Below, in pieces: positions 52,356 to 59,307 of a stretch of DNA of 64,000 bases. The notes below the pieces were generated by a model. It was not told the origin of the DNA, made no database searches, and was given only the letters and a program-made list of their open reading frames with translations. Each line of letters opens with the position of its first letter. Position 1 is the first letter of the stretch. This DNA is from an uncultured Candidatus Saccharibacteria bacterium (lineage in GTDB: Bacteria > Patescibacteriota > Minisyncoccia > Phycocordibacterales > JAACPR01): positions 18,811 through 82,810 of the forward strand of contig CAZIEY010000001.1 of NCBI GenBank assembly GCA_964538855.1. Reading direction: 5' to 3'. The position numbers were made by a program, and so were the translations under genes.

Positions 52356-52937
52356 ATGCATCATCACCACGCAAAATATTTCAAAGCCTTTCTCGTCGTC
52401 TATTTAATCTTTTCTATATATATGTTGTCGGAACACAATTTCGGCAACTTGATGGGAATGCTCGGAATTGGGCTCGGTCTTTTGGTTGCGGTACTTGCCC
52501 ACTCTCGTTATGGATATTTAACAATCGGACTTTTGCTCGTGCACATGTTTATCGAATGGAGCGAACACGGCATGCATTGGGCCGGCTATTCACACGGTGA
52601 AATTGCAATGAATGTGATTCACATTGCGCTCGACTTTATTTTCTTGTATCAAGAATTGCGCGTTCACGCAGCCCGATATTTCAAGCCAATTTTTTCTGGC
52701 GTCATTATCGCACTCTGTCTCACTTTCGCACACGGCGCATATATAGGGCATCACGAACATGACACGCATGAAGCCGAAGCAGTTCATCACGAGGAGGAAC
52801 ATGCGGATAAACACGAGGGAGAAGAACATGCTCATGAAGGCTCACTCATCGAAGCATTCGTTGTTGGCGGTATGTTTGGTTGCATCCTATCGCACCTTTT
52901 CAGACGAAAGGATGAGTGCGGGGAAAGACACGATTAA
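52356..52937 (+). CDS. His-rich membrane protein with a C-terminal His/Glu/Asp-rich metal-binding-like tail
   Basis: MHHHH N-terminus, four transmembrane helices, and the tail HHEHDTHEAEAVHHEEEHADKHEGEEHAHEG. Confidence 0.55.
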   Translation: MHHHHAKYFKAFLVVYLIFSIYMLSEHNFGNLMGMLGIGLGLLVAVLAHSRYGYLTIGLLLVHMFIEWSEHGMHWAGYSHGEIAMNVIHIALDFIFLYQELRVHAARYFKPIFSGVIIALCLTFAHGAYIGHHEHDTHEAEAVHHEEEHADKHEGEEHAHEGSLIEAFVVGGMFGCILSHLFRRKDECGERHD

Positions 52938-54721: not shown

Positions 54722-55888
54722 CTAGAATTTATCTGCTGCGTCTTCTGCCAATTCTTGAGCCTCTTCAGCAGCATCAATTGCATCCTCATAATCTTCATCA
54801 TCGAATGCCTCTTCAGCTTCATCAAGAGCATCTCGTGCATCGTCGAGTAATTCTTCTGCTTCATCAATATCATCTTCATCTTCATCATTATCCTTTGCAT
54901 CGTCAATTGCCTCCTCCGCATCATCAATTGCATCTTTTGCATCATCAATTGCATCTTCGGCTTCGTCCGCTTCATCATTTTCACCAATTGCGTCTTCGGC
55001 ATCTTTAGCTAAATCTTCCGCTTCCTCGGCAAGATCGATGGCCTCTTCATAATCTTCATTATCCATTGCCTCTTCAGCTTCTTCTAATTTTTGCTCTGCT
55101 TCATCAAGCAACTCTTCCGCCTGGTCAACATCTTCATCATTATTATCTGCGTCTTCTATTTTTTGCTCCGCAGCATCAATTCTATCTTCGGCTTTATCAA
55201 TTGCATTATCTGCTTCATCTTCATCAGTTTCACCACCTGCGTCTTCGTATGCATCAACTGCATTATCATACGCATCTTCAGCAGATTTCAATGCATCTGC
55301 ATAATCTTTCGAGAAATACGCATCGATTGCATCGAACAAATCAGTTCGCGCATCGTCAAGATTATCATCAGCTACATTTGTATCCTCACCATCGTCTTGG
55401 GCATCATCAATTTGCTCATCTGCATCTTCGACTGCTTTAATTGCCTTTTTAATCATTGCCTCAGCATCTCTTTGTTGAAAAGATATCACAGGAGAAGTGT
55501 TCGATACTGGAGGTGGAGTAACTACAACCGGAGCAGTTGAAGTAACAGGAGAAGCAGTTGCCGTATTCAAACTTGCAAATTTTGCACGAGACAACGGGCC
55601 GAAAGTCCCTGTGGCAGGAGAAATACCTTTCGCAATTTGCCATTTTTGAACCGCAACGCGTGTAAGTGGTCCGAATTTATTTGTCTCTGCTCCAGCAGAT
55701 CCAGGGCCTGTGCTTGTAATCACATATCCATTACTATTCAAATATTTTTGAAGGCAACGAACTTCTTCGCTCACAACCCCCTCTTCTAAATCAAGTGTAA
55801 AAACACAAGACGCCGCTGACGCTGGTGTCGCCACAAATGCCACCATCACCAGTGAACCCGCGATAATAATTTGTTTATATGCTTTCAT
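54722..55888 (-). CDS. Secreted peptidoglycan-binding-domain protein with a ~250-aa poly-acidic (Asp/Glu/Ala) repetitive tail
   Basis: A signal peptide MKAYKQIIIAGSLVMVAFVATPASA is taken as the start; the track ORF extends to 55939. The PG_binding_1-like block is LQKYLNSNGY...FGPLTRVAVQKWQ. The rest is D/E/A repeats such as DEAEEAIDDAKDAIDDAEEAIDDAKD. Confidence 0.65.
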   Translation of the reverse strand: MKAYKQIIIAGSLVMVAFVATPASAASCVFTLDLEEGVVSEEVRCLQKYLNSNGYVITSTGPGSAGAETNKFGPLTRVAVQKWQIAKGISPATGTFGPLSRAKFASLNTATASPVTSTAPVVVTPPPVSNTSPVISFQQRDAEAMIKKAIKAVEDADEQIDDAQDDGEDTNVADDNLDDARTDLFDAIDAYFSKDYADALKSAEDAYDNAVDAYEDAGGETDEDEADNAIDKAEDRIDAAEQKIEDADNNDEDVDQAEELLDEAEQKLEEAEEAMDNEDYEEAIDLAEEAEDLAKDAEDAIGENDEADEAEDAIDDAKDAIDDAEEAIDDAKDNDEDEDDIDEAEELLDDARDALDEAEEAFDDEDYEDAIDAAEEAQELAEDAADKF

Positions 55889-55954
55889 GATAATGCTATT
55901 AATGATTAATGTAGATATTATACCCCGATAAAGATACACGAGTCGTGAGTTTTC

Positions 55955-56896
55955 CTAACTATATAGCACTGCAAAATTAAACAAGACATTGAATTGCTTA
56001 CACCACACGAGTGCGTACGGATATTCACGAGGATCAATGCCGGCAGGAATTTCATAATTCACGTTTCCTTCGGTGGCTTTGACTGGGCCGAGGTTTACAA
56101 AGTCGGTCGCATTGATGTCTTTTGATAGGTACACGAAAATATCTGGGCCGTTTACCGTTTTAAAATTCTCGTAGCGCAAAAAATGTGCGAGGCCAGATTG
56201 TACAACGCGCACAGTACCAGACGCAGGATGCAGCGGAGTATCGATTAATTGTTTCGGTGATGTTTCGTAGTTGATTGCCGCGACATTATCTTCTGCGACA
56301 GTAGAGGTGGCATTCTGTACAGAGGCAACAGGAAGCGCTTCATCCACGCGAATATTGATGAAGAGTGGCGAAATTGTGTAGTACAAGAACCAGGCGATTA
56401 ATAGGACAATGACTCCAGCAATTAATTGTTTTATTTTTCTGATACACATATAACGTTTGAGGTCTTTAAATACAGCGCTCGGTTTCATATATTCATCAGC
56501 AGCCGTTGCAATTAATACATTATCACCGACATCAAATGATTGTGAGCTGATATTCCCAGGATTTGGCGCATGTGGTCCACATTCATCTTGTAACTGCACC
56601 GCGACTGGCACGTGGGAAATATTATGTGCGTGCATTACTTGTATGCGATGATTGCCGGTTTCCAATCGATATTTTTTATTTTTAAGTCCTACTCGTACGA
56701 TAAGCGGCTCAAACATTCCATTAGTGATCAAATCAATCCATAATTTCTCAAAGTCGACCATATCACCATTCATCAAATCAGTATACGGCTCGACATCAGT
56801 GCCACGAATTTTCATAACCCACTCGATCGGAATCAACTCGACAAATCCTTGTTTATAGAGAACGTGTTTTTTCCAATGTGGTTGTATCCTATTCAT
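55955..56896 (-). CDS. Fusion protein: ParB/Srx-like nuclease N-domain, transmembrane helix, and C-terminal DM13 domain
   Basis: The N-terminus has the ParB N-domain pattern (PLIVRVGLKNKKYRLETGNHRIQV). A single transmembrane segment, IAGVIVLLIAWFLYY, follows. The C-terminus GPDIFVYLSKD...YPYALVWCKQFNVLFNFA matches DM13. Confidence 0.55.
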   Translation of the reverse strand: MNRIQPHWKKHVLYKQGFVELIPIEWVMKIRGTDVEPYTDLMNGDMVDFEKLWIDLITNGMFEPLIVRVGLKNKKYRLETGNHRIQVMHAHNISHVPVAVQLQDECGPHAPNPGNISSQSFDVGDNVLIATAADEYMKPSAVFKDLKRYMCIRKIKQLIAGVIVLLIAWFLYYTISPLFINIRVDEALPVASVQNATSTVAEDNVAAINYETSPKQLIDTPLHPASGTVRVVQSGLAHFLRYENFKTVNGPDIFVYLSKDINATDFVNLGPVKATEGNVNYEIPAGIDPREYPYALVWCKQFNVLFNFAVLYS

Positions 56897-57098
56897 GTGA
56901 TTTTTTCCGCTGTGCTTTATTCCATTGTATCAAACTATTGCCTTTGGATTTTTTACCAACATATGTGCCGCCCCGCTTTTTATATAATGTCACCGCGTGT
57001 TGCATCGCGCGTGCAGAAAATTTTCCCATTTTAAATACTGCTTCTTTTTTACAAGCTTCCCATAATTCGGGGTTGGTGCGAGTAGTAGGCGTTGACAT
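56889..57098 (-). CDS. Small conserved hypothetical protein (69 aa)
   Basis: NPELWEACKKEA...GKFSARAMQHAVTLYKKRGG pattern. It overlaps the downstream gene start by 8 nt. Confidence 0.45.
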   Translation of the reverse strand: MSTPTTRTNPELWEACKKEAVFKMGKFSARAMQHAVTLYKKRGGTYVGKKSKGNSLIQWNKAQRKKSHE

Positions 57099-57101
57099 AC
57101 G

Positions 57102-57542
57102 TTAGTTATACAGTACGTATGATTTAGTCAATGAATTTACTGCGTCAGTTGGGCCGTACAACAACGCACCTAAATATTCTAACTCTGCATCACTTTTCGA
57201 TTGAATAGACTGAACCAACTCATCGTCGTGCCGAGTATCCAACATGTCGCGTGGAAAATCGATCAAAGTAAGACCGGCAGTCGAACGAGCTTTTGAAATA
57301 GTTTCGGCGATATGCGACACAGTCCCCTTTTTAATAATAAAACCAAAACGTGCGATGCCTTTGTGGATAACACCGTCTTTATCGAGCAACACATCTCGCC
57401 CCATCAACATGTCGTCCTTGTGTGCCCCAAGCGAAACCGCCATATGTCCAAGCACATTCATAGCTTGCCATGGTTCGAGATTTTCTGAAATAATTGCGAC
57501 GATTTTGTGGGATTTGTAGTCGTATGTCATATTACTGTGCAA
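57102..57542 (-). CDS. DUF2000-like protein (tentative)
   Basis: 146 aa. KIVAIISENLEPWQAMNVLGHMAVSLG pattern. Confidence 0.45.
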   Translation of the reverse strand: MHSNMTYDYKSHKIVAIISENLEPWQAMNVLGHMAVSLGAHKDDMLMGRDVLLDKDGVIHKGIARFGFIIKKGTVSHIAETISKARSTAGLTLIDFPRDMLDTRHDDELVQSIQSKSDAELEYLGALLYGPTDAVNSLTKSYVLYN

Positions 57543-58407
57543 GAATAGTCTTAATCACCGCCTCCAACCCCGCCAAATTTTGCTCGAATTCAACTGTCTC
57601 GTGAGTTTTTAATTCGACACCAATTGATGGAATACCGACAGTTGAAAGCCAATCGCTCGCGTCGCCTGTCACTACATACTGACTAAAGGTGTCGTTCATG
57701 GGATATCCAGACGCAGTCGAGTACGCAGACATGAACGCACGTGTTGAAGCTGCAATTGGCGCATTACAGCCCGCACCAAATACTCCGTTTGAAGCGCTAT
57801 GAGCAAAGATAACAACTCGAGGCATTCGAGCCGTCACCCAATCACGAAACCCCGCCGTTTCAGGTTCGGAAAATGCAGCAGTACCAGCACTAACTTTTTT
57901 GTTTTGCCACACACCTTTGGCTTGCCAATTACAATCGAAATTACGATTCAAATCCACCCCATGTGCATTAAATCGTCCAGGTGCAGTACCCATCACATCG
58001 GGAATCGTTGCAAGATTCACAAAACGATCCGTTGTTCCTGTGATTTTGAAATATCCATCAGGATTCAATGTAGGAATAATTGTTACTTTGAGATGCGCAG
58101 GGATAATGGCCCGATTCACATCAAAATAATCCATCAAACGATACGCGAGTAACACGGTATTCCACTCATATCCGCCATGAATACCTCCAACAAACACAAT
58201 TTCATTCGGTCCACTTCCGTATGTATGAGCTTCGATCGAACGCCCTTCTACCGAAGTCGCCACCGTTGATGTTGTGTAGGTTTCAACAATTGGCAGTGTA
58301 GGAACTTCGACTACAGGCGCGTCGGTGAAAAATTCTCCACGAAACAAGAAAAGCCCGACACCAATCAGGATGATTGCAAAAATGACGAGCAAACTTTTCT
58401 TGTTCAT
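57532..58407 (-). CDS. Secreted M14-family zinc carboxypeptidase-like protein (paralogue 1, ligands intact)
   Basis: N-terminal transmembrane/signal segment. IHGGYEW (His...Glu), the M14 hallmark GVDLNRNF, a later FAHSAS His, and GVELKTHE Glu. Confidence 0.75.
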   Translation of the reverse strand: MNKKSLLVIFAIILIGVGLFLFRGEFFTDAPVVEVPTLPIVETYTTSTVATSVEGRSIEAHTYGSGPNEIVFVGGIHGGYEWNTVLLAYRLMDYFDVNRAIIPAHLKVTIIPTLNPDGYFKITGTTDRFVNLATIPDVMGTAPGRFNAHGVDLNRNFDCNWQAKGVWQNKKVSAGTAAFSEPETAGFRDWVTARMPRVVIFAHSASNGVFGAGCNAPIAASTRAFMSAYSTASGYPMNDTFSQYVVTGDASDWLSTVGIPSIGVELKTHETVEFEQNLAGLEAVIKTILAQ

Positions 58408-58416
58408 AACCGATTT

Positions 58417-59307
58417 TTATTTAGAGAATTCTGCGAGAACTGCCTGAATACCCTTTAGATTTTTATCCCATTCAACTTGGCTGTGTGTTGCGAGAATTAC
58501 TCCGACTGCTGGAATATTCATCTTTGAAAGCCAGTCGCTCATGTCGCCCGTGATTGAATAGTCTTCGAATGAGTCATGACCTGGGTAACCAGATGCTTTG
58601 GCATACGTGCTCACAAGTGCCTTTGTTGCTGCAGAAATACTGCCACATCCAGATGCATACACACCGTTTGCTGCGCTGTACCAAGAAATTACCGCCGCAG
58701 GAGTATTCGCTGTTACATAGTCACGAAATGCAGCTGCTTCTGGTTCTGAAAAAGCAGATGTTCCCGCACTAATAGTTTTGCTCTGCCATGTAGCATCCGC
58801 CTTCCAATTACAATCAAAGTTTCGGTTCAAATCCACATTGTGTGCATTAAATCGTCCTGAAATAGTTGCTGGAGTTTCAGGAATGTTGCTGAGATCGATA
58901 TCTGCAGTCGTAGTACCCATAATTTTATAAAATCCATCCGGGTTCAAAAGAGGAATCACTGTGACTTTCAAATTTTCAGGAACGACAGTTGGATTAGCTT
59001 CCAAATAATCCATCAAACGATACGCAAGAAGCGCTGTGTTCCAAGAATATCCTCCGTGCACACCTCCAACAAAAAGAATTTCTTTGTCGCCGTTTCCGTA
59101 TGAATGCGCCATAATGTCACGACCTTCAACAGATTTTCCAATGACACCAGTTGGAGTTTCCTCTACGACAGGCGCTGTAGTTGTGGAAGTTGTTGTGGTA
59201 GTGGTAGTCGTGGTTATTGTAGGAGCCTCGACTTGGTCTTTGTTAAAAAATGCAAATCCTGCCCACGCAATCAAAACCACTGCAATAATAGTAACGAGAT
59301 ATTTCAT
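58417..59307 (-). CDS. M14 carboxypeptidase-like paralogue 2 with substitutions at the presumptive Zn-ligand and catalytic positions (likely pseudo-enzyme) and a poly-Thr linker
   Basis: It aligns colinearly with paralogue 1. At the aligned positions VHGGYSW has Ser for Glu, SWYSAA has Tyr for His, and GVILATHS has Ile for Glu, while DLNRNF is retained. A T9-S-T3 linker follows the transmembrane segment. Confidence 0.7.
   Translation of the reverse strand: MKYLVTIIAVVLIAWAGFAFFNKDQVEAPTITTTTTTTTTSTTTAPVVEETPTGVIGKSVEGRDIMAHSYGNGDKEILFVGGVHGGYSWNTALLAYRLMDYLEANPTVVPENLKVTVIPLLNPDGFYKIMGTTTADIDLSNIPETPATISGRFNAHNVDLNRNFDCNWKADATWQSKTISAGTSAFSEPEAAAFRDYVTANTPAAVISWYSAANGVYASGCGSISAATKALVSTYAKASGYPGHDSFEDYSITGDMSDWLSKMNIPAVGVILATHSQVEWDKNLKGIQAVLAEFSK

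What the first reader, a model, noticed from the sequence alone, without database searches (positions are those of the whole stretch)
55955..56896. Unusual domain fusion: ParB/Srx-like nuclease domain, transmembrane helix, and DM13 domain
ParB N-terminal-like domains (GNHR motif) are usually cytoplasmic DNA/NTP-binding modules. DM13 is typically an extracytoplasmic, redox-associated beta-sandwich. Their combination across a membrane helix is not a commonly described architecture. The gene is overlapped (8 nt) by a small conserved gene and followed by a DUF2000-like gene and two M14 peptidase paralogues, suggesting a cell-envelope module.
Basis: partly seen in the sequence, partly recalled or inferred. 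Interest (0 to 1): 0.55.

Follow-up and report, generated by a model that had tools for sequence, protein, structure and literature searches.

The report
Membrane-tethered ParB-like/DM13 gene fusion
In one narrow lineage of tiny Patescibacteria-type bacteria, two genes that are normally separate and unlinked have merged into one membrane-spanning protein, with a small nucleotide-pocket ParB/Srx-fold domain inside the cell and a DM13 domain outside; it is real and very rare, but nothing shows that the two halves work together.

Summary
Residues 1-143 form a ParB/Srx-fold domain. Pfam ParB_N scores below threshold, but all 50 listed PDB fold matches are ParB/Srx proteins and the Box I and GxxR (GNHR) motifs are invariant. 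One TM helix (about 157-180, N-in/C-out) and a linker follow, then a DM13 beta-sandwich (Pfam E=5e-17).

The new result is its origin. Each half belongs to its own widespread family of standalone proteins: at least 303 clusters of soluble ~150-aa ParB-like proteins across Paceibacteria, and ~173-aa signal-anchored DM13 proteins. The junction lies where one family ends and the other starts (KRY|M150). None of about two dozen unfused ParB-like loci has DM13 within 4 kb. An exhaustive scan of 1.84 billion representative proteins listed none with both halves.

The fusion occurs in the window and in two other assemblies (86-88% identity). Both domains are under strong purifying selection (dN/dS 0.007-0.15). 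A fourth relative has deleted the DM13 part.

Verdict: a genuine, lineage-restricted fusion and a new architecture built from known domains. "Nuclease" and "cell-envelope module" are not supported. Moderate interest.

The parts
55955..56896 (-). Complete fused ORF, 313 aa: ParB/Srx-like domain, TM helix, linker, DM13
   Evidence: ORF listing. Full-length AF2 model has mean pLDDT 92.4. Full-length orthologues exist in L027 (86% identity) and L031 (88%). dN/dS is 0.05-0.15 on both domains.
56468..56896 (-). ParB/Srx-fold domain, residues 1-143; member of a Paceibacteria-wide family of standalone ~150-aa soluble proteins
   Evidence: About 50% identity end-to-end to at least 303 protein clusters of 146-170 aa. 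AF2 pLDDT 91. All 50 listed Foldseek PDB hits are ParB/Srx superfamily. PHROG 723 'ParB-like partition protein' E=8.4e-7. 33 of 39 family members hit PF02195 weakly.
56705..56752 (-). Box I-like element: helix (residues 49-59) plus loop G60-M-F-E-P64
   Evidence: Aligns to Spo0J '..HGILQP..' in the profile match to 6sdk_A. G60 and P64 are invariant in the family. Motif definition from PMC12704722.
56645..56656 (-). Box II 'GxxR' phosphate motif: G81-N82-H83-R84
   Evidence: Invariant in 39 family members. Aligns to ParB GERR and, in a non-significant alignment, to sulfiredoxin GCHR with Asn in place of the catalytic Cys.
56447..56449 (-). Met150: the fusion junction and the ancestral start codon of the DM13 gene
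   Evidence: Standalone ParB-like proteins end at query residues about 146-152, and standalone DM13 proteins begin with a Met followed by the basic stretch that precedes the helix. The Met is conserved in all four related sequences.
56357..56428 (-). Single transmembrane helix (about residues 157-180), the former signal anchor of the DM13 protein
   Evidence: Hydropathy maximum 2.24. Flanking charges are +6/-1 on the N side and +1/-2 on the C side, giving N-in/C-out. The AF2 model has a continuous helix at 144-179.
56246..56356 (-). Variable extracytoplasmic linker (residues 181-217)
   Evidence: Lowest pLDDT blocks (67-76). Highest dN/dS (0.14-0.35). Length varies among DM13 homologues.
55967..56245 (-). 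DM13 beta-sandwich (residues 218-310), with invariant His223 (56228-56230) and Trp298-Cys299 (56000-56005)
   Evidence: PF10517 E=5.1e-17. Strands 218-310 at pLDDT 95-98. Invariant columns in 40 homologues.
56889..57098 (-). 69-aa ORF overlapping the fusion start by 8 nt; associated with the fusion in this lineage only and dispensable
   Evidence: 91% identical copy in L028 and a copy in L031. Precisely absent from L027 (L031 1146-1345 missing). Only a sub-threshold DUF5872 hit.

Best explanation
The ORF encodes a bitopic membrane protein created by a recent in-frame merger of two genes in one narrow Paceibacteria-type (Patescibacteria) lineage. The upstream gene was a member of a strongly conserved family of soluble ~150-aa ParB/Srx-fold proteins. 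The downstream gene was a typical ~173-aa signal-anchored DM13 protein. The two were brought together, the stop codon of the first was lost, and the DM13 gene's own start Met (M150), basic stretch and signal-anchor helix became the link. The result holds the ParB/Srx-like domain on the cytoplasmic face of the membrane and displays DM13 outside the cell. Shown: the architecture, the topology signals, the two-family origin, the exact junction, the rarity, and purifying selection on both halves. Inferred: (a) the N-terminal domain binds a nucleoside triphosphate through its Box I and GxxR pocket, acting as a small enzyme or switch rather than as a partition protein, sulfiredoxin or proven nuclease; (b) the DM13 ectodomain does the same extracytoplasmic job as its free-standing relatives, most likely a redox or ligand-binding role using the invariant His223 and Cys299, because sister proteins carry DM13 fused directly to MsrA-MsrB; (c) the two halves keep their separate functions and the fusion is tolerated or mildly useful membrane tethering, not an obligate transmembrane coupling device.
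For: Origin: the C half matches about 120 listed standalone TM+DM13 proteins at 40-59% identity, and the N half matches ~150-aa standalone proteins at 45-55%. The alignment shows one family ending where the other begins. Rarity: no protein listed from 1.84 billion representatives has both halves; the best score is 185 bits from a single-domain protein. No DM13 lies within +-4 kb of any of 26 unfused ParB-like loci held, about two dozen of them distinct. Of 139 family members held, only the window's close relatives have a hydrophobic segment. Reality: uninterrupted fused ORFs occur in three independent assemblies (window, L027, L031). dN/dS is 0.06 (ParB-like) and 0.05-0.10 (DM13) at dS 0.6-1.5 in the window comparisons, and 0.15 and 0.007 between L027 and L031. 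Fold: AF2 pLDDT is 91-92, all 50 listed PDB fold hits are ParB/Srx, and PHROG 723 gives E=8.4e-7. Pocket: G60, P64 and G81-N82-H83-R84 are invariant and align to the Box I loop and GERR of Spo0J, motifs described as the nucleotide-contacting elements of this fold (PMC12704722). Topology. [quoted passage not shown] Dispensability or decoupling: relative L028 deleted about 415 bp covering the DM13 ectodomain.
Against: ParB_N is below Pfam's gathering score (15.7-17.5 against 26.3 bits). Fold matches are moderate (best E=1.7e-3, query-normalised TM about 0.4, about 90 of 149 residues). Nucleotide binding was not tested, and Box III is not evident. Lack of gene linkage elsewhere does not prove lack of functional coupling here. 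The very strong constraint on both halves and on the junction Met in three lineages could mean the fused state itself is advantageous. A redox role for DM13 is itself only a prediction. L028 comes from a 1.4-kb metagenome contig and also carries a 1-nt deletion, so it could be a decaying allele or partly an assembly or sequencing error. A separate start at Met150 cannot be excluded, because this genome rarely uses Shine-Dalgarno sites (6 of 55 genes).
Confidence: 0.6

Rival explanations
1. Rosetta-stone fusion. The ParB/Srx-like protein and the DM13 protein act in one pathway in all Paceibacteria, and the fusion reveals it. For example, NTP-driven closure or dimerisation of the cytoplasmic domain could control, or respond to, the state of the extracytoplasmic DM13 redox module that serves envelope repair enzymes such as MsrA/MsrB.
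For: Both families are widespread in the same clade. The fusion is kept under strong purifying selection in three lineages. The ParB/Srx fold includes a redox-repair enzyme (sulfiredoxin) and membrane-regulated CTP switches such as Noc, which are among the top fold hits (PMC12704722). DM13 is fused to methionine sulfoxide reductases in sister proteins.
Against: There is no adjacency in any of about two dozen distinct unfused loci, and the neighbourhoods vary. No other fusion was found in 1.84 billion representatives. A single TM helix without cofactor-binding residues is a poor conduit for electrons. Asn replaces the Srx catalytic Cys. One relative has lost DM13 while keeping the ParB-like part and the helix.
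Confidence: 0.15
2. Two proteins from one ORF. The DM13 part is still made on its own from the conserved internal Met150, or is released by cleavage after the helix, so the fusion is mostly a transcriptional or translational accident with little full-length product of consequence.
For: Met150 is the ancestral DM13 start and is conserved in all four related sequences. The genome rarely uses Shine-Dalgarno sites, so the absence of one proves nothing.
Against: There is no stop codon between the halves, so every ribosome translating the strongly constrained N half (dN/dS 0.06) must read into the helix and DM13. No promoter-like -10 box lies at leaderless distance from Met150, and promoter-like sites in the region are no more frequent than in shuffled sequence. 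No AxA-type signal-peptidase motif is apparent after the helix; this was judged by eye only.
Confidence: 0.15
3. Artefact or pseudogene. A sequencing or assembly error, or a recent inactivating mutation, joined two adjacent genes, and the fused reading frame is not functional.
For: Relative L028 carries a 1-nt deletion in the ParB-like part and lacks DM13. All supporting sequences are metagenomic.
Against: The same uninterrupted fusion occurs in three independent assemblies separated by dS of about 0.1-1.5, with dN/dS well below 1 on both halves. No genome shows the supposed unfused adjacent arrangement.
Confidence: 0.03

Closest known systems
Standalone ~150-aa 'ParB N-terminal domain-containing' or hypothetical proteins of Paceibacteria (e.g. 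P0132 Ca. Harrisonbacteria, P0392 Ca. Paceibacterota, P0332 Ca. Azambacteria)
   Same: The N-terminal 149 residues are a full-length member. Identity is about 50% end to end, with the same invariant residues (D34, W53, G60, P64, R68, R77-L-E79, G81-N-H-R84, C106, F121, P139, F143).
   Different: All other members held are soluble and end at the position equivalent to residue ~147-152. Only this lineage continues into a TM helix and an ectodomain.
Signal-anchored DM13 domain-containing proteins of Patescibacteria (~172-200 aa; e.g. P0016, P0032)
   Same: Residues 150-313 match from the start Met through the basic stretch, the helix, the 'YY.ISPLF' juxtamembrane motif, the variable linker and the DM13 domain, at 40-59% identity.
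   Different: Here the N-terminal signal anchor has become an internal TM helix preceded by a 149-residue cytoplasmic domain.
TM-DM13-MsrA-MsrB fusion proteins of Patescibacteria (~515-546 aa; e.g. P0092 Ca. Kaiserbacteria, P0015)
   Same: Same anchored DM13 module at 43-57% identity. They are another example of DM13 gaining a fusion partner in this clade.
   Different: Their partner domains follow DM13 on the same (extracytoplasmic) side and have a known redox-repair activity. Here the partner precedes the helix, lies on the opposite side of the membrane and has no known activity.
ParB-family CTPases: ParB/Spo0J, Noc, KorB, PadC (PDB 6sdk, 7nfu, 8qa8, 6ryk)
   Same: Same core fold (about 90 aligned residues), with the Box I loop and the Box II GxxR motif in the same register. 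Noc also works at the membrane (PMC12704722).
   Different: No HTH or C-terminal dimerisation domain, GNHR instead of GERR, no evident Box III, and no parA among the immediate neighbours scanned. Noc binds the membrane reversibly rather than through an integral TM helix.
Sulfiredoxin (PDB 1xw3, 3cyi, 6ky4)
   Same: A small, essentially single-domain ParB/Srx-fold protein with an H-R pair in the box (GCHR against GNHR). It appears among the fold hits at ranks 22-50.
   Different: The catalytic Cys position holds an invariant Asn. The profile comparison is not significant (E=0.36).
Animal DM13 proteins (Knickkopf, two DM13 domains plus DOMON)
   Same: Same Pfam domain, also extracellular and membrane-anchored (PMC4140639).
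   Different: Eukaryotic, with tandem DM13 plus DOMON and a GPI or C-terminal anchor, and no cytoplasmic domain.

Membership tests
Pfam DM13 (PF10517) | Profile score at or above the curated gathering score | tested here: met
   62.9 bits against 25, E=5.1e-17, residues 223-309 covering profile positions 7-103 of 105.
Pfam DM13 (PF10517) | Conserved cysteine near the C-terminal strand (recalled from the original domain description, so a lead only) | tested here: met
   W298-C299 is invariant in 40 aligned homologues, as is His223.
ParB/Srx fold (Pfam ParB_N PF02195 and relatives) | Pfam profile score at or above the gathering score | tested here: not met
   15.7 bits for the full protein and 17.5 for the N half, against 26.3. 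33 of 39 family members give weak hits in the same region, best E=3.6e-5.
ParB/Srx fold (Pfam ParB_N PF02195 and relatives) | Three-dimensional fold matches solved ParB/Srx structures | tested here: met
   AF2 model pLDDT 91, pTM 0.86. All 50 listed Foldseek PDB matches are ParB, Noc, PadC, KorB, SbnI, SerK, sulfiredoxin, 1vk1 or Atu1540. Best E=1.7e-3, probability 1.00, about 90 aligned residues.
ParB/Srx fold (Pfam ParB_N PF02195 and relatives) | Box I loop and Box II GxxR nucleotide-pocket motifs (as defined in PMC12704722) | tested here: met
   G60...P64 and G81-N-H-R84 are invariant and align to HGILQP and GERR of Spo0J.
ParB/Srx fold (Pfam ParB_N PF02195 and relatives) | Actual NTP binding or hydrolysis | not testable with these tools
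   Needs a binding assay such as DRaCALA, as used in PMC12704722.
Canonical partition ParB | HTH DNA-binding domain, C-terminal dimerisation domain, and the GERRxRA box | tested here: not met
   The domain is about 143 residues and is followed directly by a TM helix. The box is GNHR. No Pfam HTH or ParB C-terminal hit.
Canonical partition ParB | Adjacent parA gene | tested here: not met
   Genes scanned on both sides are a PG-binding protein on one side and, on the other, the 69-aa ORF, DUF2000, M14 x2, a 238-aa protein, Ldh_2 and a 177-aa protein. None is ParA-like.
Sulfiredoxin | Catalytic cysteine in the GCHR motif | tested here: not met
   The aligned position is an invariant Asn82.
ParB-like nuclease | Nuclease activity or an associated nuclease domain (e.g. 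HNH) | not tested
   No nuclease domain was detected by Pfam, NCBIfam or PADLOC. Activity cannot be assessed in silico.
Paceibacteria ~150-aa ParB-like family (unnamed) | End-to-end similarity with conservation of the family's invariant residues | tested here: met
   E about 1e-45 to 1e-48, 93-99% coverage of residues 1-150, 45-55% identity. All 20 invariant columns are present in the query.
Anti-phage defence or phage proteins | Match to PADLOC models or phage genome records | tested here: not met
   PADLOC gave 0 families for either half or the neighbours. tblastn against 50,697 phage records found no match.

The most novel reading that the evidence does not exclude
The fusion is a true Rosetta stone. 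The strongly conserved ~150-aa ParB/Srx-fold protein of Paceibacteria would be the cytoplasmic, NTP-dependent partner of the extracytoplasmic DM13 module. Together they would form a previously unknown transmembrane system that links cytoplasmic nucleotide state to repair or redox chemistry at the cell surface (DM13 feeding MsrA/MsrB). This lineage would then show the first ParB-fold NTP switch wired through an integral membrane helix.
Probability: 0.12. Interest if true: 0.7.

Novelty: new variant of a known kind. Interest (0 to 1): 0.38.

Why it matters
There are three reasons it matters. First, it adds an integral-membrane, two-compartment architecture to the known fusions of the ParB-CTPase/Srx fold. 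The partners highlighted in the 2025 survey's text (HTH, HNH, methyltransferases, CBS, RNA-related domains) include no membrane-spanning or DM13 partner. Second, it draws attention to an uncharacterised, strongly conserved family of genuinely single-domain bacterial ParB-fold proteins across Paceibacteria. Most members score below Pfam's threshold, so Pfam-based surveys are likely to miss them. Third, it highlights anchored DM13 and DM13-MsrA-MsrB proteins as a possible envelope redox system in organisms with minimal metabolism. If the two halves prove to be functionally coupled, the fusion would give a first handle on the function of both families. If not, it is a clean, datable example of gene fusion by stop-codon loss that re-uses a signal anchor as a transmembrane linker.

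Tried and rejected
- **NHL repeat reading.** The best PDB profile hit (6d69, E=1.1e-5) comes from the short motif GNHRIQV matching each of six NHL blades below threshold. Only 1 of 39 members touches Pfam NHL, and the confident model is an alpha/beta ParB fold. Rejected.
- **Sulfiredoxin membership.** hhalign gave E=0.36, and Asn sits at the catalytic Cys position. Rejected.
- **Defence system or phage origin.** PADLOC found nothing and there was no phage genome match. The only plasmid hit is a distant 163-aa hypothetical protein on a Vibrio megaplasmid. Uninformative.
- **Conserved operon.** Window neighbours were searched against all loci. Only the 69-aa gene (L028) and generic PG-binding domains matched.
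- **GDSL-lipase/AI-2E coincidence between L001 and L029.** The lipases are 37% identical, but the pattern occurs in one pair only and the AI-2E genes are barely related. Treated as coincidence.
- **Promoter and terminator scan.** Counts equal the shuffled expectation.
- **Shine-Dalgarno test for an internal start at Met150.** Uninformative, because only 6 of 55 genes have such a site.
- **Sequence searches of PDB with the whole protein or the DM13 profile.** Nothing significant.
- **Rfam and tRNA scans of the window.** Nothing found.

Full report
**Observation**

The window carries an ATG-to-stop ORF at 55955..56896 on the minus strand, 313 aa.
- GNHR is encoded at 56645-56656.
- There is a single hydrophobic segment at about residues 157-180.
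- The DM13 match is well above Pfam's gathering score: PF10517, 62.9 bits against 25, E=5.1e-17, residues 223-309.
- The ORF start overlaps a 69-aa ORF by 8 nt (ATGAATAG).
- Upstream lie DUF2000 (E=3e-34) and two tandem M14 peptidase paralogues.
- The ParB_N hit itself is sub-threshold: 15.7 bits against 26.3, E=0.016. NCBIfam gives only a faint Noc hit.

**The protein is two families joined end to end**

A search of 5.8 billion proteins found only one other full-length match, P0001 (86% identity). All other hits covered only the C-terminal half. They were ~172-200-aa proteins made of an N-terminal hydrophobic helix plus DM13, mostly from Patescibacteria, and ~515-546-aa proteins in which the same helix and DM13 are followed by MsrA and MsrB.

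Searching residues 1-150 alone recovered a different family of standalone proteins of ~146-170 aa at 45-55% identity over 93-99% of the query. Some carry a precomputed PF02195 hit, and one is named [quoted passage not shown]. A profile search raised this to at least 303 clusters from Azam-, Giovannoni-, Harrison- and other Paceibacteria-type genomes, all of similar length (locus titles add Lloyd-, Vogel- and Kaiserbacteria).

In the alignment the standalone ParB-like proteins end at query residues ~146-152. The standalone DM13 proteins begin with a Met and a basic stretch corresponding to query M150-CIRKIK. So the junction is ...KDLKRY|MCIRKIK..., which means the stop codon of one gene has been lost directly in front of the start codon of the other.

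**The fusion is real, rare and narrow**
- The fusion was found uninterrupted in two other assemblies: L027 (GCA_020047435.1, 316 aa) and L031 (JACCDM011658989.1, 316 aa, 88% identity).
- Nei-Gojobori estimates for window against L027 give dN/dS 0.062 for the ParB-like part and 0.095 for DM13, at dS about 0.6-0.8.
- Window against L031 gives 0.057 and 0.052. L027 against L031 gives 0.15 and 0.007.
- Because no stop separates the halves, translation of the strongly constrained N half must continue into the helix and DM13. The fused polypeptide is therefore made and maintained.
- Unfused ParB-like genes were examined at 26 loci (about two dozen distinct, since a few loci are the same contig fetched twice). 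None has a DM13 gene within +-4 kb, and their neighbourhoods differ.
- The two DM13 loci examined likewise lack a ParB-like gene.
- An exhaustive phmmer scan of 1.84 billion representative proteins listed no protein matching both halves. The best score was 185 bits, from a single-domain protein. Longer DM13 proteins turned out to be tandem DM13 or fn3 fusions.
- Among 139 ParB-like family members held, only the window's close relatives have any hydrophobic segment.

**Micro-evolution within the lineage**
- L031 shares the window's upstream order: M14, DUF2000, the 69-aa gene, then the fusion. Downstream it differs.
- L027 lacks exactly the 69-aa gene (L031 1146-1345).
- L028, the contig of P0121, keeps the 69-aa gene (91% identity), the ParB-like part (with a 1-nt deletion) and the helix. 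It has lost about 415 bp corresponding to residues ~175-313, so the reading frame stops just after 'LYYTI'. The downstream genes of L031 follow directly.
- The fusion therefore pre-dates these four sequences. The 69-aa gene is dispensable, and DM13 can be lost.

**What the N half is**

An AlphaFold2 model built on 39 family members is confident (mean pLDDT 91.1, pTM 0.86). All 50 listed Foldseek matches in the PDB are ParB/Srx-superfamily proteins: Noc, ParB, pNOB8 ParB, PadC, KorB, SbnI, free serine kinase, sulfiredoxin, 1vk1 and Atu1540. The scores are moderate (best E=1.7e-3, probability 1.00, about 90 aligned residues, query-normalised TM about 0.4). Support at sequence level comes from three results:
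- PHROG 723 'ParB-like partition protein', E=8.4e-7.
- Weak PF02195 hits in 33 of 39 members, always over the same segment.
- Profile matches to Spo0J, ParB and Noc chains at E=0.15-0.9.

The profile alignment to Spo0J places the family's invariant G60...P64 on the Box I loop (HGILQP) and the invariant G81-N82-H83-R84 on GERR. A 2025 survey describes these as the base-contacting C motif and the nearly invariant GxxR phosphate motif of the fold. It also reports that orphan homologues often lack Box III, bind ATP, CTP or GTP unpredictably, and that short single-domain versions were seen mainly in phages and some archaea (PMC12704722).

On membership: it is not a partition ParB, because it has no HTH or dimerisation domain, has GNHR rather than GERR, and has no parA neighbour. 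It is not a sulfiredoxin, because Asn sits at the catalytic Cys position and the comparison is non-significant. Nothing supports "nuclease". The best-supported inference is a small NTP-binding enzyme or switch of unknown substrate.

**What the C half is**

The full-length model (pLDDT 92.4) shows one continuous helix at 144-179, a lower-confidence linker, and a beta-sandwich at 218-310 with pLDDT 95-98. Charge distribution (+6/-1 before the helix, +1/-2 after) predicts N-in/C-out. That is the topology the standalone DM13 proteins must already have.

DM13 has no solved relative by sequence. Fold hits give only generic Greek-key resemblance to Cu,Zn-SOD. His223, Trp298-Cys299 and several Tyr and Asn residues are invariant across 40 homologues. 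DM13 function is unknown but predicted to be redox or electron transfer (PMC4140639). The frequent TM-DM13-MsrA-MsrB proteins in the same clade are consistent with an extracytoplasmic redox-repair context.

**Most likely mechanism**

Two genes were juxtaposed in one lineage and the intervening stop was lost. The DM13 signal anchor was re-used as a transmembrane linker. The product holds a normally soluble ParB/Srx-fold NTP-pocket domain at the inner face of the membrane and displays DM13 outside. Both domains remain under selection.

Given the complete lack of linkage elsewhere, and the loss of DM13 in one relative, I judge it more likely that each half keeps its own function than that they form a coupled transmembrane device. 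Coupling cannot be excluded (probability about 0.12-0.15). Separate translation of DM13 from Met150 also cannot be excluded, because this genome rarely uses Shine-Dalgarno sites.

**Comparison and novelty**

Both domains, and both standalone families, exist in databases, although they are uncharacterised. The combination across a membrane is not in the main text or the held supplementary files of the ParB-fold fusion survey, and it was not found elsewhere in the searches above. I classify it as a new variant (a new architecture) of known kinds, confined to a few closely related metagenomic sequences. Interest is moderate.

Noticed in passing
Related proteins P0015, P0025, P0033, P0040, P0050, P0092, P0094 and others (not in the window): Many Patescibacteria encode proteins of ~515-546 aa made of a signal-anchor helix, DM13, MsrA and MsrB. 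DM13 sits where a thioredoxin-like electron-donor domain sits in some other extracytoplasmic Msr proteins (that comparison is from memory). This may be the best lead to DM13 function in bacteria.
   Followed up: partly
Family of P0122-P0160 and P0304-P0395; loci L001-L026: There is a strongly conserved family (about 50% identity across Paceibacteria-type lineages) of at least 303 clusters of soluble single-domain ParB/Srx-fold proteins of about 150 aa. They have invariant GNHR, an invariant Cys106 and a conserved C-terminal EYMKPS.VF motif. Most score below the Pfam PF02195 threshold and sit in variable genomic contexts. Function is unknown.
   Followed up: partly
window, whole 64 kb (e.g. upstream of 55 ORFs of at least 150 aa): Only 6 of 55 long ORFs have a Shine-Dalgarno-like motif. 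Many have a TATAAT-like box within about 5-12 nt of the ATG, which suggests widespread leaderless or very short-leader mRNAs.
   Followed up: no
window 1-64000: No tRNA gene (ARAGORN) and no Rfam family at gathering threshold anywhere in 64 kb.
   Followed up: no
window 54722-55939 (-): The gene directly downstream encodes a 405-aa protein with an N-terminal helix, a PG_binding_1 domain and DUF4398. Its C-terminal ~250 residues are extremely rich in Asp, Glu and Ala and are repetitive. This neighbour is not shared with L031.
   Followed up: no
window 52356-52937 (+): A 193-aa predicted membrane protein starts MHHHH and has a His- and Glu-rich C-terminal tail (HEHDTHEAEAVHHEEEHADKHEGEEHAHEG). 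It could bind or transport metal.
   Followed up: no
window 57532-59307 (-): Two tandem M14 carboxypeptidase paralogues (291 and 296 aa) each have an N-terminal helix. The second has a poly-Thr linker (TITTTTTTTTTSTTT). L031 preserves at least the first one upstream of DUF2000.
   Followed up: partly
window 57102-57542 (-) against L031 714-1142: The mechanical ORF for DUF2000 starts at a TTG and would overlap the M14 gene by 11 nt. The L031 orthologue starts at the ATG equivalent to window 57530 (MTYDYKSHK), which is probably the true start.
   Followed up: no
L028 209-1408 against L031 1141-2766; L027 1-1030 against L031 1084-2309: Two clean presence/absence polymorphisms occur among close relatives. 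L028 has a ~415-bp deletion removing the DM13 ectodomain, with about 10 nt of overlap between the flanking blocks (possible microhomology). L027 has a ~200-bp absence of exactly the 69-aa gene.
   Followed up: yes
L001 534-2992 and L029 4224-6575: An unfused ParB-like gene and an unfused DM13 gene, from different genomes, each lie between a GDSL lipase (37% identical to each other) and an AI-2E-family transporter (barely related). The pattern was seen once only and is probably coincidence.
   Followed up: yes
window 55994-56050 (-), residues 283-301: The DM13 C-terminal strand motif (NYEIPAGIDPREYPYALVW) repeatedly gives weak, non-significant sequence matches to AA11 lytic polysaccharide monooxygenases (4mah, 9exj; E about 1.5). 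The model also weakly resembles Cu,Zn-SOD beta-barrels.
   Followed up: no
L032 4001-4492 (Vibrio breoganii plasmid NZ_CP016179.1): A 163-aa hypothetical protein on a 341-kb mobilizable megaplasmid is a distant homologue of the N half (36% identity over residues 4-100). It lies next to IS200/IS605 tnpA and tnpB genes. It was the only hit outside Patescibacteria-type sequences.
   Followed up: partly
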